From the human T2T-CHM13v2.0 reference genome, Homo sapiens: a stretch of DNA of 64,000 nucleotides. Of this stretch, positions 1 to 5,297 are shown piece by piece. Every line of letters begins with the position of its first letter. Position 1 is the stretch's first letter. The notes beneath the pieces are model-generated. The model worked only from the letters and a program-made list of their open reading frames with translations, did no database searches and was not told the origin of the DNA. The translations under genes were made by a program, and so were the position numbers. The stretch lies in assembly GCF_009914755.1 (NCBI RefSeq), contig NC_060939.1; one strand, 5' to 3'.

Positions 1-209
1 GTCGGAAGTTCCCACACACCCCCATCAGGAGGTCTGACTCCGGCCACCTCCTGCCTTGCCTGAGCCTGTCCTGCTCGTGGCCCTCCCCTTCTAAGCCTGT
101 CTGAACACCCCTACCTTGGGGACCCCTCCTGTGTCTTCCTTCTCCAGGAAGCCCCTCTGATCCTCCCCCTCAGAGCTCTAGCCCTCCTCCAAGCTCCATC
201 CCTGCCCTA

Positions 210-3200
210 TCCCAGCCTTCCTATACAGCCCCACAAGTCAAAAAATCGTGACTAAAATGAAATATCTCCCTGACAAAAAACTAAAAAAAAAAAAAAAGAC
301 ACTGAAGTCTCAATTAAGACTAAAAAAAATTAAAAAAAAATAAAGTATCCTTTTTAAAAGTGGCCACTGTAAAGCCTCCAAAACCCATTCCATTAACTTA
401 AAAAACAAAAAAACCTATATAAGTAAATCAGTGGCCACTACCAAAACACAAACTAAAAACTTTACACTTATTAACAAAAAAATTTAAAAAAAAATTGAGC
501 CTTCATTTTCGCCTTAAAATTCTCCTATGTTTATAATTCAAAAAAAAAAAAAAATCCAACAAATGACACATACTAACCAACTTAAAAGCATTAATGCCGT
601 AATTCAACCCATGGAGAGTCTCCAACCTGAGTTGCCCTCTCAGGCCATAATCCCCCAAAATTGGCCTTTAATTATAATTAATCTAAAAGATTACTTTTTT
701 ACCATTCTTCTGACAAAACAAAATTTAAAAAAATTTACTTTTACTATACCAGCCATAAATAATAAAAAACCAGCCACCAGGTTTCAGTAAAAAGTGTTAC
801 GTCAAAAAATACTTAATAGTCCAACTATTTGTCAAACTTTTTTGTAACTCAAACTCTTCAACCAGTTAAACACAAGTTTTCAAACTGTTATTCATTATAT
901 TAATAATATTTTGTATACTACAAAAACAAAAACAAATTAACTATTACACATTTCTACAAGCAAAGGTTACCAACACAAGACTGACAATAATATCTAATAA
1001 AATTCAAACCTCTAATCCTTTCCATTACTTAAAAATGTAAGTTAAAAAAAACCACAAAAAATAAAAATTAAACATTAAAAACATTAAATAACTTTCAAAA
1101 ATTACTAAAAAATATTAAACTCGGCCAACTCTAGACATCCCTACTTATGCCATGTCAAATTTGTTCTCTATCTTAAAAAAAAATCCAAAATTAAATAATG
1201 AACATTAACTCCAAAGACAACTAAAAAAATTAATTAAAAAAAGTTCAGTCAACCCAAATAAATAAAATGAATCACTTAGCCCCACTCCAACTTTTAATTT
1301 TTACTACTACACATTCTCCAACAGACATTATTGTTCAAAATACAAATCTTATGAAGTGGTCCTTCCTTCCTTACAGCACAATTAAGACTTACATTGTACT
1401 TAAATCAAATGACTACATTAATTAGACAAAACTACAAATAATAAAATTATATAAAAATAACCCAAATAAAATAATTGTTCCTTTAAACAAAAAACAAATT
1501 AAACAAGCCTTTATCAATTCTGGAATATAACAAATTGGTCTTACTAATTTTATAAAAAATTATTGACAATCATTACCCAAAAACAAAAATCTTCCAGTTT
1601 TTAAAATTGACTACTTAAATTTTACCTAAAATTACCAAACATAAACCTTTAAAAAATACTCTAACGGTGTTTACTAATAGTTCCAACAATAAAAAAACAA
1701 CTTACACCAGACCAAAAAAACAAGTCATTAAAACTCAATGTCACTTAACTCAAAAAACAAAATTAGCTACTGTCATTACAATATTACAAAATTTTAATCA
1801 GCCTATTAACATTGTATCAAATTCTACATATATAATACAAACTACAAAAAAAGTTAAAACAGCCCTAATCAAATATCAAATATAATCAGTTAAACCAACT
1901 ATTTAATTTGTTACAACAAACGGTAAAAAAAAAAATTTCCCATTTTATATTACTCATATTCAAACACACACTAATTTACCAAGGCCTTTAACTAAAACAA
2001 ACAAACTAATTTACTAGTATCATCTACATTCATAAAAACACAAAAACTTCATGCCTTAACTCATATAAATACAACAAAACTAAAAAATAAATTTAATATC
2101 ACATAAAAACAAAAAATATTGTACAACATTACACCCAGTGTCAAATTCTACACCTGCCCACTCAAAAAACAAAAGTTAATCCCAAAAGTCTATGTCCTAA
2201 TTCGTTATGACAAATAAATATCACACATGTACCTTCATTTGAAAAATTGTCATTTGTCCATACAACAGTTAATACTTATTCACATTTTATATAAACAACC
2301 TACCAAACAAAAGTACTTCCCATATTAAAAAACATTTATTATCTTGTTTTACTGTCATAAAAGTTCCAAAAAAATTAAATAATAGGCCAAAATAGTGTAA
2401 TAAAACATTTCAAAAATTCTTAAATCAATAAAAAATTACACATACAACAAAAATCCCCTATAATTCCCAAATACAAACCATAATTTAAAAAACTAACACT
2501 CAAAACTCAATTAAACAATAAAAAGCATAACACTCCCCCAATACAACTTAATCTAACACTCTAAACTTTTTTAACATATATAAAAATCAGACCACTACTT
2601 CTACAAAACAACATTTTACTAATAAAAAAACCCACATAAAAAAACTAATTTAATTTAAAAAACATAAAAAATAAAAACATTAAAAAAAGCTTTACTTGTG
2701 TTTCACCAAAAAAAAAAAAATCAACTTCCTGTTTAAATACCCACTAAACATTTCAAATTCTACAATAAACCCATTAAAAATACAAAAACCCACCTCCACA
2801 AAAATACAAACACCACAATCAAGCATCATTAACTCACCAAATAAAATAATAACATCAAAAAAAACAAAGTCGCCATCCACCAAAAAAACAAAGCCACCAA
2901 CTTAAACACAATTAAAAAAACTAACACAGTTAACTAAAAAAAAACCCAAAAAAACACAAAAGTGACACAAACTCCAAAAAAATACTGTTTATGGCTTTAA
3001 TAATTATATCAACAATAGTAAGTATCCCCATGTCTACAAAAACAACTACAACTAATTATACTAAGCCTATGTACCTTTCCCACCCTTAATTCAAACAGTC
3101 ACATAAATAAATAATCCTATTAAAATATATATTAATAATACATGGGTACCAGGCCCCACAAATAATCGTTGCCCTGCCCAACCTAAAAATAATAATAATA

Positions 3201-3690
3201 TAAATATTTCCATTAAATATTATTATCCTATTTGCCTAAAAAAGACACCAAAATATTTAATACCTACAACCCAAAATTAGTAAAAGTACCTACTATCAAT
3301 ACCAATAAATTTACTTGTCACATAGTAAGTAAAATGTCACTCAAACCACAAATAATTTACAAAACTCTTCTTTTCAAAAATCATTAAAATCTAAACCTAA
3401 AAAAAAACCTTGCCCCTAAAAAATCAAAAGATCCAAAAGTCTTAGTTTAAAAAAATGTATAACTAATACTACAATAATACTACAAAACAATAAATTCAAA
3501 ACTATTATAAACTAGGCCCCTCAAAACCAATTATATTGTAATTCTATGGGCCAAACTCACTCGTGTTCGCAGGCCCCATCCATCTGGCCCATTAATCCAG
3601 CCTATAATAATAATTTAACTAAAAAACTAAACCAAATTTATAAAAACTTAAAATCACCCTATCCATAAAAATAAAATTAAAAAAAAATTT
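210..3690 (+). mobile_element. HERV-K(HML-2) internal fragment (end of pro, pol, 5' part of env), type 2, massively G-to-A hypermutated
   Basis: ORF 527-790 ([39 protein letters not shown]...[16 protein letters not shown]) is HML-2 RT with G-to-A changes. The YIDD motif reads YINN at 896-907 and Trp codons read TAA. The env start ATG reads ATA at ~2765, and the pol-env 292-nt segment is retained. Left boundary is approximate. Confidence 0.95.
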
Positions 3691-3696
3691 TTTTTT

Positions 3697-4353
3697 ACTA
3701 TGCGTAAATGTATGCATAGGCCAGATTTATACTTCTCTCCACCCAAACATCTCAGTGTAGTAAAAAGTAACAGAACAACATTGCCGCCAACATATCTCGC
3801 CTCCAGCCACAGGGCGGTTTTCTCCTATCTCAAAATAAAACGAATGTACAATCGGGTTTTACACCGAGACACTCCGTTCCCAGGGGCATACAAGAGATGG
3901 AGGCCTTCCTCTTACTAATCCTCCTCAACACAGACCCTTTATGGGTGTCGGACTGGAAGACGGTCAGGTCTTTCCCTTCCCATGAGGCCGTATCTCAGAC
4001 CGTCTCAGTGGGGAAAAACCTTGGACAATACCCAGACTTTCTTGGGCAGAGGTCCCTGCAGCTTTCCGCAGTGTATTGTGCCCCTGGTTAATCAAAAATG
4101 AAAAATGACAATAATTTTTACCAAAAATACTGCCCGTAAACATATTATTAACAAGACACATTCTACACAGCCCTAGATCCCTTAAACCTTAATTCTATAC
4201 AACACGTGTTTCTGTAAACACAGGGTTGAAACTAAAGTTACAAATGAACATCTCAAAACAATTATTCAGGGTACAAATCAAAATGAGGTTTCTTATGTCT
4301 TCCTTTTCTACATAGACACAGTAACAGTCTGATCTCTCTTTCTTTTCCCTACA
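3697..4353 (-). mobile_element. Partial LTR5 (LTR5B/LTR5A-like), U3 start to just past the TATA box, inverted relative to the internal fragment
   Basis: Reverse strand from 4353 reads TGTAGGGAAAAGAAAGAGAGATCAGACTGTTACTGTGTCTATGTAGAAAAGGAAGACATAAG, the LTR5 5' end. It stops after TATAAATCTGGCCTATGCATACATTTACGCATAGTA. Confidence 0.93.
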
Positions 4354-4922
4354 GACACCAGGCTTCCCTTCCCCTGGAGCAGCCAGACCTTCTGTGGTAT
4401 CTTGAGCAAGCGCCTGGTCCTGTCTGGGCCTCTGCAGACTCAAGGTCTGGTGCCTGACTTACACCCTGTTGTCATATCCTGCCATCTGGCCCCATATGGA
4501 GTCCTACAGGGGACTCTCAGACCCAGGCGTGAGCACTGGCTCAGGCCCCTCTCAGAGGTCTGGCGGCCCAGCATCTGCCCACGGGCCTCCTCTCCCCCTC
4601 CTTTTCTCCAGGCTCCTGCCTCTGCCACAGTTCCCTGGAGGTGGCCTCTAGCCTGGCCCAGGGGCTCACACACTCCTGAAGGAGGCAGGGCCAGACTCAG
4701 GCAAGGCCTTGGAGGACACATCCCAGTGGGCAGGGCCCAGCACTCTTGGGGTGGAACTACAGGGAGGAGAGGCAGGGCAATTGAGGCTTGAGGTGCCTGG
4801 CCTCACCCAAGGTGACCAGCCTGCTCCTTTTCCTCAGTCTCAGAGGGAGCAGAGGACGGAGGTGGGGAAGAGAGGCCAGGGACACAGTAGGGCTTGGTTA
4901 TGGATGATGGGGGGTCCTTGTG

Positions 4923-5297
4923 TGATATAATTAGGCTTTGTGTCTCCACCCAAATCTCATCTTGAATTATCCCCATTTTCCCCACCTGTCAAGGGAGAGA
5001 CCAGGTGGACGTAATTGGTGGATCATGGGAAGGGTTTCCCCCATGCTGTTCTCATGACAGTGAGTGAGTTCTCATGAGATCTGATGGTTTTATAAGGGGC
5101 TTTTCCTACTTGTTCAGCACTTCTCCTTCCTGCCACCTCGTGAAGTTTCCTTGCTTCCCCTTCACCTTCCGCTGTGATTGTAAGTTTCCTGACACCTCCC
5201 CAGACATGCTGAACTGTGAGTCAATTAAACCTTTTTCTTTTACAAGCTATCCAGTCTCGTGCAGTTCTTTATAGCAGTATGAAAACAGACTAATACA
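4923..5297 (+). mobile_element. MaLR solo LTR, THE1 family (THE1D-like)
   Basis: Starts TGATAT...CACCCAAATCTCATCTTGAATT, contains GAGTTCTCATGAGATCTGATGGTTTTATAAG and AACTGTGAGTCAATTAAACC, ends GACTAATACA. Confidence 0.88.

What the first reader, a model, noticed from the sequence alone, without database searches (positions are those of the whole stretch)
210..3690. Near-saturating G-to-A hypermutation with an apparent GA/TC bias rather than GG
Seen: whole 60-nt lines contain no G (2461-2520, 3601-3660), YIDD has become YINN, and TGG has become TAA. Surviving Gs are mostly followed by T or C, and TGGCC/AGGCC motifs repeatedly survive. Established: APOBEC3G prefers CC (GG to AG), whereas A3A/B/F/H prefer TC (GA to AA). 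Inference: editing was by a TC-preferring APOBEC3 or by several enzymes, at an exceptionally high load.
Basis: partly seen in the sequence, partly recalled or inferred. Interest (0 to 1): 0.7.

Follow-up and report, generated by a model that had tools for sequence, protein, structure and literature searches.

The report
Hyperedited retrovirus fossil with inverted LTR
This is a known, broken fragment of an ancient human endogenous retrovirus in which about 70% of the G bases were turned into A by a host DNA-editing enzyme, and the editing runs on the same DNA strand into a neighbouring back-to-front viral end piece, which suggests the virus copy was already scrambled when it was edited and inserted.

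Summary
Window 207-3690 (+) is the pol-to-mid-env fragment of the catalogued HML-2 provirus 15q25.2. Against its closest unedited natural relative, 448 of 634 reference G are A, versus 24 A>G and 32 C>T. The bias is not GG: GA 91% > GG 74% > GC 65% > GT 41%, and a C at +2 protects, which explains the surviving GGCC.

Two known GG-type HML-2 hypermutants run through the same script gave the APOBEC3G pattern, so the difference is real.

The hyperediting is already in print only as supplementary data: Knisbacher & Levanon 2016 list this locus, its two Y copies and its gorilla orthologue.

New here:
- The adjoining 657-nt LTR fragment (3697-4353) lies in inverted orientation.
- It still carries about 30% G>A on the same genomic strand, which is C>T in LTR sense. 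This held against 19 of 19 natural LTR copies.
- Its contexts are GA ≈ GC >> GG ≈ GT.
- The flanks are unedited.
- A paralogous empty site shows one 4.1-kb insert, no target-site duplication, a 28-nt target deletion and a 3-nt microhomology.

Best reading: an APOBEC-type deaminase, not A3G-like, edited one chimeric single-stranded cDNA before a non-canonical integration. The enzyme is unresolved.

The parts
1..206 (.). Left host flank, not edited
   Evidence: Aligns at 91-94% to the paralogous empty site L022 (chr15:75.72 Mb). Over 1511 aligned nt, G>A 22 vs A>G 24; in the proximal 300 nt, 0 vs 6.
207..209 (+). Left junction: 3-nt microhomology (CTA) shared by host target and HML-2 pol sequence
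   Evidence: The empty-site paralog matches the window through position 209. The HML-2 reference matches from position 207.
207..3690 (+). HML-2 internal fragment (end of pro/pol through the first half of env) of provirus 15q25.2. It is truncated at both ends, and about 70% of G are edited to A.
   Evidence: 76-77% identity to natural HML-2 copies over the full length. G>A 448/634 vs L004. Editing is flat at 62-79% per 350-nt bin. Listed as 15q25.2 in PMC3228705 Table 2.
896..907 (+). Reverse-transcriptase active-site codons, now reading Y-I-N-N
   Evidence: Natural relatives read Y-V-D-D at the aligned columns.
1122..1220 (+). Weak RT thumb match (read with X at stops)
   Evidence: Pfam RVT_thumb, E 8e-4, below the curated cut-off.
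2038..2112 (+). Weak integrase zinc-finger match (read with X at stops)
   Evidence: Pfam Integrase_Zn, E 1.6e-4, just below the cut-off.
2837..2953 (+). Rec / env N-terminal region
   Evidence: Pfam HERV-K_REC, E 2.6e-6, 27.8 bits against a cut-off of 27.5.
3098..3566 (+). Env surface-subunit domain, split over two frames
   Evidence: Pfam HERV-K_env_2, E 2.9e-15 (frame 3) and 2.4e-18 (frame 1).
3691..3696 (.). Six T (A on the minus strand) at the inversion junction, templated by neither partner
   Evidence: Env homology ends with the edited A-run 3679-3687 plus TTT 3688-3690. LTR homology starts at 3696/3697.
3697..4353 (-). First ~657 nt of an LTR5-type LTR, inverted relative to pol-env. 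It starts with its own 5' terminus (TGTAGGG...) exactly at the host junction at 4353. It carries C>T in LTR sense, which is G>A on the window + strand.
   Evidence: 85-88% identity to 19 natural LTR copies. C>T 41-47 vs T>C 6-14, G>A 7-14, A>G 3-14; reference-vs-reference controls give C>T 6-14. The references continue past the break, so the LTR is truncated.
4354..5200 (.). Right host flank, not edited
   Evidence: Aligns at 90-91% to the same paralog L022. G>A 13 vs A>G 6 over 847 nt; in the proximal 300 nt, 3 vs 1.

Best explanation
A single-stranded-DNA cytosine deaminase of the APOBEC type edited one continuous DNA strand before integration. That strand is the window's minus strand: 5'-LTR U3 (sense, nt 1-657) - a few A - antisense env to pol-3'.

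How the strand most likely arose (inferred): plus-strand DNA was primed at the polypurine tract and therefore began at LTR nucleotide 1. After ~657 nt it left its template and continued on a sense template in env, probably the co-packaged second RNA.

Why the load is so high (inferred): the antisense env-pol part had no polypurine tract to start second-strand synthesis. It stayed single-stranded for a long time and was edited almost to saturation, 70% of all C and about 90% in good contexts. The U3 part was born base-paired and was edited only ~30%.

How it was fixed and inserted (inferred): copying this strand fixed the U as G>A on the window + strand across both segments. The double-stranded product had one genuine LTR end, which was joined to the chromosome exactly at its terminal CA, as integrase does. 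Its non-viral end was joined by microhomology, with loss of 28 nt of target and no target-site duplication.

The enzyme (partly shown): in the unsaturated LTR part it preferred 5'-TC and 5'-GC about equally, with CC and AC poor. It avoided G at -2. So it was not APOBEC3G-like.

Shown: the strand-coherent editing, the contexts, the confinement to the insert and the junction anatomy.

Inferred: the template switch, the one-ended integration and the enzyme identity.
For: 1. Same-strand editing across the inversion. In the internal part G>A is 448/634. The inverted LTR has C>T in LTR sense 41-47 of 140-150 reference C against each of 19 of 19 natural LTR copies. The other three transitions number 3-14 each, and 12 reference-vs-reference controls give C>T 6-14.

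2. The LTR's own minus strand shows no excess (G>A in LTR sense 7-14 vs A>G 3-14). That is expected if only the chimeric strand's information survived.

3. Editing stops at the insert. The flanks, compared with the empty-site paralog, show G>A 22 vs A>G 24 (left, 1511 nt) and 13 vs 6 (right, 847 nt).

4. It looks like one insert. The paralog L022 carries both flanks 28 nt apart without any of 207-4353.

5. The right junction lies exactly at the LTR terminus (...CCCTACA|GACAC). The left junction has a CTA microhomology. There is no duplication.

6. There is a step, not a gradient, at the junction. The internal part is flat at 62-79% per bin. Against the LTR, GA falls from 188/207 to 15-18/33-36 (p 1e-7 to 1e-8) and GG from 115/155 to 5-7/41-43 (p<1e-10).

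7. Contexts in the LTR part: GAD 14-17/26-30, GCD 16-19/25-28, GGD 3-5/28-32, GTD 2-4/21-27, GNC 3-4/35-37.

8. The method control recovers the GG signature in two other HML-2 hypermutants.

9. The two Y copies share everything. They differ from chr15 by 1.7-2.3%, with a symmetric spectrum.

10. Only the three copies span the junction among the 40 matches scored.
Against: - The template-switch step is inferred from anatomy only. No intermediate is observable.
- Why the U3 part was edited at all (30%) needs an extra assumption, such as displacement from its template.
- The six junction bases are unexplained.
- No known human APOBEC3 is established to prefer TC and GC equally. In what I read, GC-to-AC is attributed only to APOBEC3DE by one review, while another paper gives GA/GT for the same enzyme.
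- In the saturated internal part GC (65%) is clearly below GA (91%), so the 'GA ≈ GC' statement rests on ~35 sites per class in the LTR.
- Polarity relies on natural copies as references. No outgroup orthologue was available.
- The own-genome search scores only the best 40 of 1135 candidates, so an unedited donor with the same junction is not excluded.
Confidence: 0.55

Rival explanations
1. Two separate cDNA fragments from the same infection were joined end to end by host end-joining and captured at a chromosome break. One was a heavily minus-strand-edited pol-env duplex. The other was a U3 fragment edited on its plus strand. The common polarity is a 1-in-2 coincidence.
For: The junction has 6 untemplated bases and the outer left junction uses microhomology with a 28-nt deletion; both are typical of end joining. 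The editing level steps abruptly at the junction.
Against: A free U3 duplex would be expected to carry the canonical minus-strand editing (G>A in LTR sense), yet that class shows no excess (7-14 vs A>G 3-14). The plus strand carries 41-47 changes. The context rules (+2 C protective, GA and GC hot) are the same in both segments. The LTR end at the host junction is the exact viral terminus.
Confidence: 0.15
2. The inversion already existed in a donor provirus, for example an LTR nested antisense in env. A read-through RNA spanning pol-env-antisense LTR was reverse transcribed, and its ordinary minus-strand cDNA was edited along its whole length.
For: This explains same-strand editing over both segments without any unusual strand switch.
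Against: It does not explain why the insert ends exactly at LTR nucleotide 1 at the host junction, or why editing drops stepwise from ~70% to ~30% at the junction. The fragment lacks the primer-binding site, R and polypurine tract needed for retroviral reverse transcription, and it has no 3' poly(A) or duplication as in LINE-mediated copying. No donor spans the junction among the 40 matches scored.
Confidence: 0.12
3. Editing happened in the chromosome after integration. It would be a strand-coordinated cluster, like kataegis in tumours (that comparison is recalled), on resected or transcribed DNA of an already rearranged insert.
For: Strand-coordinated C>T clusters next to rearrangements are what nuclear APOBEC3A/B produce (recalled). 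The polarity is uniform over 4.1 kb.
Against: The bias stops at both insert boundaries: in the proximal 300 nt of the flanks, G>A 0 vs A>G 6 on the left and 3 vs 1 on the right. There is no decay with distance from either end. The 70% load is far above anything recalled for such clusters.
Confidence: 0.05
4. One reading: an ordinary provirus hypermutated by a TC-preferring APOBEC3 (or A3G plus A3F together). The neighbouring LTR would be an unrelated element.
For: GA is the most edited context, at 0.89-0.91. GG sites whose second G survived are still edited 17-18 of 36-37 times, so some CC-type activity or a mixture is possible.
Against: The LTR is absent from the empty-site paralog together with the pol-env fragment. 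It carries the same-strand bias with the same context rules. GC is as hot as GA where editing is unsaturated. In the LTR, GG is at background-like levels (3-5 of 28-32 GGD), so an A3G contribution is small.
Confidence: 0.08

Closest known systems
GG-type hypermutated HML-2 proviruses. These are the loci at T2T chr21:16.92 Mb and chr3:128.63 Mb, which I take from recall to be HERV-K60 and HERV-KI of Lee, Malim & Bieniasz 2008. That paper was not held; I saw only its citation.
   Same: HML-2 proviruses with strand-specific G>A excess acquired before integration.
   Different: Their editing is GG-dominated: GG 62-63/158-160 and 31-33/170-172, against GA 14-15/205-210 and 6-8/227-231. It affects only ~7-14% of G. 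Here 70% of G are edited, the order is GA > GG > GC > GT (GA ≈ GC >> GG in the LTR), and the structure is rearranged.
Ultra-edited ERVs of Knisbacher & Levanon 2016 (PMC4866542; passages and supplement file 2 read)
   Same: This very locus is in their data S8: 76 clustered sites for hg19 chr15:84829019-84832364+. The Y copy chrY:26397836-26401035 has 63 rows, and chrY:27561401-27564601 is also listed. The gorilla orthologue chr15:64191242-64194685 is their top gorilla ERVK, with 255 G>A of 344 mismatches; its source is the gorilla counterpart of my reference L004.
   Different: They report BLAST-limited counts, with a primate maximum of 234 sites and an overall record of 353. Global alignment here gives about 418 background-corrected edits in the internal part alone. 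In the text and tables I could read, they do not describe the inverted LTR, its same-strand editing, the GC component or the integration anatomy. Their data S5 (per-element motifs) and file 1 were not readable.
Catalogue entry 15q25.2 / Yq11.23a,b in Subramanian et al. 2011 (PMC3228705; passages read)
   Same: Same element and the same duplicates. It is shared with orangutan, and the Y copies arose after the chimpanzee/orangutan split.
   Different: The paper has 0 occurrences of 'hypermut', 'APOBEC' or 'G to A'. Its coordinates cover only the internal part.
Defective HIV-1 proviruses with inversions and/or hypermutation (Joseph et al. 2022, PMC9278108; passages read)
   Same: Inversions (1 of 78 unique proviruses, plus 1 with inversion and deletion) and hypermutation (14 + 9 of 78) occur among integrated proviruses. 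Strong-stop plus-strand template switching between the two packaged genomes is invoked for LTR asymmetry.
   Different: The passages I read contain no analysis of editing polarity across an inversion. Those proviruses keep two LTR ends.
APOBEC3DE/A3D and AID target preferences
   Same: A review attributes GA-to-AA and also GC-to-AC to A3DE (PMC3549941). AID is characterised by GpC+ApC editing (PMC2877740). A3D gives GA, A3F gives GAA and A3G gives TGGG (PMC4199767).
   Different: Here ApC (GT) is the coldest context, at 2-4 of 28-33 in the LTR, so AID alone does not fit. Esnault 2008 gives GA/GT rather than GC for A3DE. The primary paper (Dang 2006) was not held.

Membership tests
APOBEC3-hypermutated endogenous retrovirus | Large strand-specific excess of G>A over the complementary C>T and over A>G on the coding strand | tested here: met
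   G>A 448 vs C>T 32, A>G 24, T>C 46 against L004. The result is similar with 6 other references.
APOBEC3-hypermutated endogenous retrovirus | Dependence on the +1/+2 neighbours (Hypermut GRD vs control) | tested here: met
   251/284 vs 197/350 with L004; odds ratio 5.9-7.2 and p 1e-19 to 1e-22 with four references.
APOBEC3-hypermutated endogenous retrovirus | Editing confined to the retroelement (acquired before integration) | tested here: met
   The flanks, compared with the empty-site paralog, show no G>A excess.
APOBEC3G signature | GG>AG dominates after normalisation | tested here: not met
   GG is below GA in both segments. In the LTR, GGD is 3-5/28-32 against GAD 14-17/26-30. The positive controls show what a GG signature looks like.
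TC-preferring APOBEC3 signature (A3F/A3D/A3H type) | GA>AA dominant, GAA favoured, other +1 contexts poor | tested here: inconclusive
   GA is highest (0.89-0.91), and GAA is 79/85 in the internal part and 6/6 to 6/8 in the LTR. But GC equals GA in the LTR (15-19/34-39; p 0.8-1.0 vs GA), which this signature does not predict.
AID signature (WRC) | Both GpC and ApC on the deaminated strand are hot (plus-strand GC and GT followed by A/T) | tested here: not met
   In the LTR, GCA is 10-12/15-19 and GCT 5-6/6-10, which are hot. GTA is 0-1/6-7 and GTT 1-3/7-12, which are cold.
HML-2 (HERV-K) provirus | Homology to HML-2 pol and env | tested here: met
   76-77% identity over 3.46 kb to catalogued HML-2 copies, about 93% when G>A is set aside. 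Pfam HERV-K_env_2 and HERV-K_REC match.
HML-2 (HERV-K) provirus | LTRs in the same orientation as the internal genes | tested here: not met
   The single LTR fragment is inverted and truncated. There is no 5' LTR, gag or 3' env.
Canonical integrase-mediated integration | Two LTR termini at the host junctions and a 5-6 bp target-site duplication | tested here: not met
   One junction is at the exact LTR terminus. The other lies inside pol with a 3-nt microhomology. 28 nt of target are missing relative to the paralog, and there is no duplication.

The most novel reading that the evidence does not exclude
The locus is a molecular fossil of a failed reverse transcription. A polypurine-tract-primed plus strand jumped onto a sense template and became a chimeric single strand that could not be made double-stranded. 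A hominoid deaminase with a 5'-W(T/G)C preference, unlike any well-characterised human APOBEC3, then edited it to near saturation. The product still entered the germ line through a one-ended integration. If true, it would be the first genomic record of plus-strand and minus-strand viral DNA being edited as one molecule. It would also be direct evidence that enzymes other than APOBEC3G attacked HML-2 in the ape germ line.
Probability: 0.35. Interest if true: 0.65.

Novelty: new variant of a known kind. Interest (0 to 1): 0.5.

Why it matters
Published work on HML-2 that I could read attributes its editing traces to APOBEC3G only. Esnault 2008 states there is no clear GA or GT contribution. This locus shows that a different, non-GG activity hit an HML-2 genome in the hominoid germ line.

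The load is higher than the 'unprecedented' record in the genome-wide survey that lists it: about 418 corrected sites in 3.45 kb, against 353.

The polarity of editing across an inversion acts as a built-in strand label. It dates the rearrangement to before or during editing, so it gives rare access to an aberrant reverse-transcription and integration intermediate. The same test, comparing editing polarity with segment orientation, could be applied to other rearranged ERVs and to defective HIV proviruses.

Tried and rejected
- Inversion of an ordinary hypermutated double-stranded cDNA or provirus after editing: rejected. It would put the LTR's changes on the opposite genomic strand (G>A in LTR sense), and that class shows no excess.
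- Resection-type gradient from either end: not seen. Editing is flat at 62-79% per 350-nt bin, then steps down.
- Protected patches or gene-conversion tracts: none. The 12 unedited good-context sites common to four references are scattered.
- Two-enzyme model, suggested because GC differs little between segments (89/137 vs 16-19/34-39, p 0.08-0.09) while GA, GG and GT differ strongly: not pursued. Per-trinucleotide numbers are too small, and saturation can produce the same picture.
- CpG decay as the cause: rejected. Only 27 of 448 internal G>A (6%, L004) and 2-4 of 41-46 in the LTR are at CpG.
- Pfam found no RVT_1 or rve domain in the X-read frames, only weak thumb and zinc-finger matches.
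- An exact-motif search for the unedited RT codons found nothing, because natural relatives read YVDD.
- Literature. Search terms '15q25.2 + HML-2 + hypermutat' found 0 papers. '15q25.2/Yq11.23a/HML-2' found 4 papers, none on editing. 'HML-2 + hypermutated + APOBEC3F + GA-to-AA' listed no HML-2 paper among its 12 rows. 'APOBEC3 + plus-strand DNA + C-to-T + inversion + provirus + template switching' showed no description of editing polarity across an inversion in the listing or in the one paper I opened.
- Lee 2008 and Dang 2006 are not held. Anwar 2013 and Armitage 2008 were not looked up.
Full report
**What is there**

Window 207-3690 on the + strand is strongly G-poor: A 47.1%, C 20.2%, G 5.6%, T 27.1% over 210-3690, against 23.2% G for the whole window.

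A search of the window's own assembly found two 97%-identical copies on contig 24. About 45 further matches at 72-80% identity are ordinary HML-2 (HERV-K) proviruses. Homology to them runs from window 207 to about 3690.

Read with X at stops, the three frames give:
- Pfam HERV-K_env_2 (E 2e-18 and 3e-15);
- HERV-K_REC;
- weak RT-thumb and integrase zinc-finger matches.

So the piece runs from the start of pol, or the end of pro, to the middle of env.

It is the catalogued provirus 15q25.2 of Subramanian et al. 2011 (hg19 chr15:84829020-84832364). That paper records it as shared with orangutan, with duplicates Yq11.23a and Yq11.23b. It contains no mention of hypermutation or APOBEC (passages).

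**Checking the observation**

- There are 196 G in 3481 nt.
- The two 60-nt lines hold no G. The longest G-free run is 127 nt (2398-2524).
- 138 of 196 surviving G are followed by T or C.
- There are 12 surviving GGCC.
- Reference TGG reads TAA in 27-31 cases.
- The RT motif reads YINN at 896-907. Natural relatives read YVDD there, not YIDD.

I built no consensus. I aligned the fragment pairwise to seven natural unedited copies. Of 610-646 reference G, 421-452 (69-71%) are A. A>G is 17-24, C>T 32-50 and T>C 46-63. With G>A set aside, divergence is 6.6-7.8%. Corrected for background, this is about 418 edits in the internal part.

**Context**

By the reference's +1 base, against L004:

| Context | Edited | Fraction |
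|---|---|---|
| GA | 188/207 | 0.91 |
| GG | 115/155 | 0.74 |
| GC | 89/137 | 0.65 |
| GT | 56/135 | 0.41 |

The order is the same with three other references.

The +2 base matters as much. With C at +2: GCC 0.29, GTC 0.11, GGC 0.49, GAC 0.83. With A at +2: GCA 0.95, GGA 0.90, GAA 0.93.

GG is partly inflated by sequential editing. Where the second G survived, the first is edited 18 of 36 times. Where it was edited, 94 of 113 times.

The Hypermut-type GRD-versus-control test gives odds ratios of 5.9-7.2 and p 1e-19 to 1e-22.

As a control, the same script was run on two other HML-2 loci (T2T chr21:16.92 Mb and chr3:128.63 Mb, which I take from recall to be K60 and KI). It returned a clean GG signature:
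- GG 62-63/158-160 and 31-33/170-172;
- GA 14-15/205-210 and 6-8/227-231;
- GC 3-4/112 and 3/136.

An unedited copy gave 6-7 G>A. So the non-GG pattern here is not an artefact of the method.

**The inverted LTR**

Window 3697-4353 is the first ~657 nt of an LTR5-type LTR, but on the minus strand. Its 5' terminus (TGTAGGG...) sits at 4353 and it reads towards the env fragment. Natural copies continue beyond the break, so it is truncated.

In LTR-sense orientation, against each of 19 of 19 natural LTR copies:
- C>T 41-47 of 140-150 reference C;
- T>C 6-14;
- G>A 7-14;
- A>G 3-14.

Twelve reference-versus-reference controls give C>T 6-14.

C>T in LTR sense is G>A on the window + strand. So the editing keeps the same genomic strand across the inversion, at about 30% instead of 70%.

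Because this part is unsaturated, it shows the preference best:

| Context | Edited |
|---|---|
| GA | 15-18/33-36 |
| GC | 15-19/34-39 |
| GG | 5-9/41-43 |
| GT | 2-4/28-33 |
| +2 = C | 3-4/35-39 |
| +2 not C | 38-42/102-109 |

- Hot triplets are GAA, GCA, GCT and GAT.
- Cold ones are every GNC, GGG, GGT and GTN.
- GA vs GG gives p 0.001-0.003, GC vs GG p 0.0004-0.005, and GA vs GC p 0.8-1.0.

On the deaminated strand this reads 5'-W(T/G)C, with G at -2 avoided.

**Boundaries and integration**

A paralog on the same chromosome (chr15:75.72 Mb, L022) carries both flanks at 90-94% identity with only 28 nt between them. It has nothing of 207-4353.
- The left junction shares CTA between the target and pol.
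- The right junction is exactly the LTR terminus (...CCCTACA|GACAC).
- There is no target-site duplication.
- Between env and LTR lie six T that neither partner templates. The env homology ends in an A-run produced by editing, plus TTT.

Against the paralog the flanks show no bias:
- G>A 22 vs A>G 24 over 1511 nt on the left;
- 13 vs 6 over 847 nt on the right;
- 0 vs 6 and 3 vs 1 in the proximal 300 nt.

Editing within the internal part is flat at 62-79% per 350 nt, and unedited good-context sites are scattered. The drop at the junction is a step (context-matched p down to 1e-13).

The two Y copies differ from the chr15 copy by 1.7-2.3% with a symmetric spectrum, and from each other at 1 site. 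So everything above predates that duplication.

Among the 40 matches scored for a probe across the env-LTR junction, only these three loci span it.

**Interpretation**

Shown:
- One strand of the whole 4.1-kb insert, and only the insert, was deaminated.
- That strand is sense for the LTR and antisense for pol-env.

An inversion made after ordinary editing would have put the LTR's changes on the other strand, so the rearranged strand existed when editing took place.

Inferred, as the most economical origin:
- A plus strand was primed at the polypurine tract, which explains why it begins at LTR nucleotide 1.
- After ~657 nt it switched to a sense template in env and continued as antisense DNA.
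- Lacking a polypurine tract, that part stayed single-stranded and was edited almost to completion.
- The LTR part began life base-paired and was edited less.
- One genuine LTR end then allowed a one-ended, integrase-like joining. The other end was joined through microhomology, with a small target deletion.

Rivals are weaker but not excluded:
- two fragments joined by end joining;
- a chimeric RNA from a rearranged donor;
- editing in place.

**Which enzyme**

It was not APOBEC3G-like. A TC-preferring APOBEC3 fits GA and GAA but not the equal GC. AID fits GC but not the cold AC.

From what I read:
- One review attributes GC-to-AC, besides GA-to-AA, to APOBEC3DE (PMC3549941, passage).
- Another paper gives GA/GT for that enzyme (PMC2531183, passages).
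- The primary paper was not available.
- A3D, A3F and A3G signatures as GA, GAA and TGGG come from PMC4199767 (passages).
- The TpC+CpC versus GpC+ApC distinction between APOBEC3s and AID comes from PMC2877740 (passages).

The enzyme stays open. An A3D-like or since-changed hominoid APOBEC3, or a mixture, are the candidates.

**What is already known**

The heavy editing is not new. In Knisbacher & Levanon 2016 (PMC4866542):
- Data S8 lists 76 clustered edited sites for this human element, and both Y copies are listed.
- The supplementary alignment table shows the gorilla orthologue (gorGor3 chr15:64191242-64194685) as the most edited gorilla ERVK, with 255 G>A of 344 mismatches (supplement file 2).
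- The main text gives 234 sites as the primate maximum and 353 as the overall record. My global pairwise count for this locus is higher.
- Primate motifs are summarised there as GG and/or GA.
- File 1 and data S5, which may hold the per-element motif, could not be read.

Esnault et al. 2008 found only the GG (A3G) trace in 20 HERV-K copies. Ito et al. 2020 report GG and GA contexts for human ERVs in general (PMC6955324, passages).

I found no description of the inverted LTR, its same-strand editing or the integration anatomy.

**Verdict**

The locus is a known hyperedited HML-2 fragment. The new content is the non-GG, GA+GC signature measured against natural copies, and the strand-coherent editing across an inverted LTR within a single, non-canonically integrated insert.

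Noticed in passing
L022 (chr15:75720682-75724491, minus strand) vs window 1-222 and 4354-5200: A paralogous segment about 6.3 Mb upstream on the same chromosome carries both flanks at 90-94% identity without the insert. It serves as an empty site and shows that the duplication of this segment predates the insertion.
   Followed up: yes
L002, L003 (contig 24, 24.61 and 26.23 Mb) vs window 1-5192: The two Y-chromosome copies of the whole region (flanks, pol-env fragment, inverted LTR) are 97% identical to chr15 and differ from each other at 1 aligned site. This fits a chr15-to-Y transposition followed by a very recent Y-internal duplication.
   Followed up: partly
window 3691-3696: Six T at the env/LTR inversion junction are templated by neither partner. 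Whether they are untemplated addition or slippage on the neighbouring A/T runs is unexplained.
   Followed up: partly
window 896-907 and aligned columns of L004, L005, L007: The natural old HML-2 relatives read YVDD at the RT active site, not YIDD. The I of the window's YINN is therefore itself a G>A change.
   Followed up: yes
window 207-3690 vs 3697-4353: GC-context editing differs little between the two segments (65% vs 47-49%, p about 0.08-0.09), while GA, GG and GT differ strongly. This is a weak hint of two editing phases or enzymes, but it is not separable from saturation effects.
   Followed up: partly
PMC4866542 supplement vs main text: The paper's 'up to 234 editing sites' for primates may refer to the gorilla orthologue of this locus (255 G>A in their table). 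That link is my inference and is not stated in what I read.
   Followed up: no
window 613-643: There is a small cluster of surviving G in good contexts (a run of G in the reference is only partly edited). No larger protected patch exists anywhere in the fragment.
   Followed up: partly
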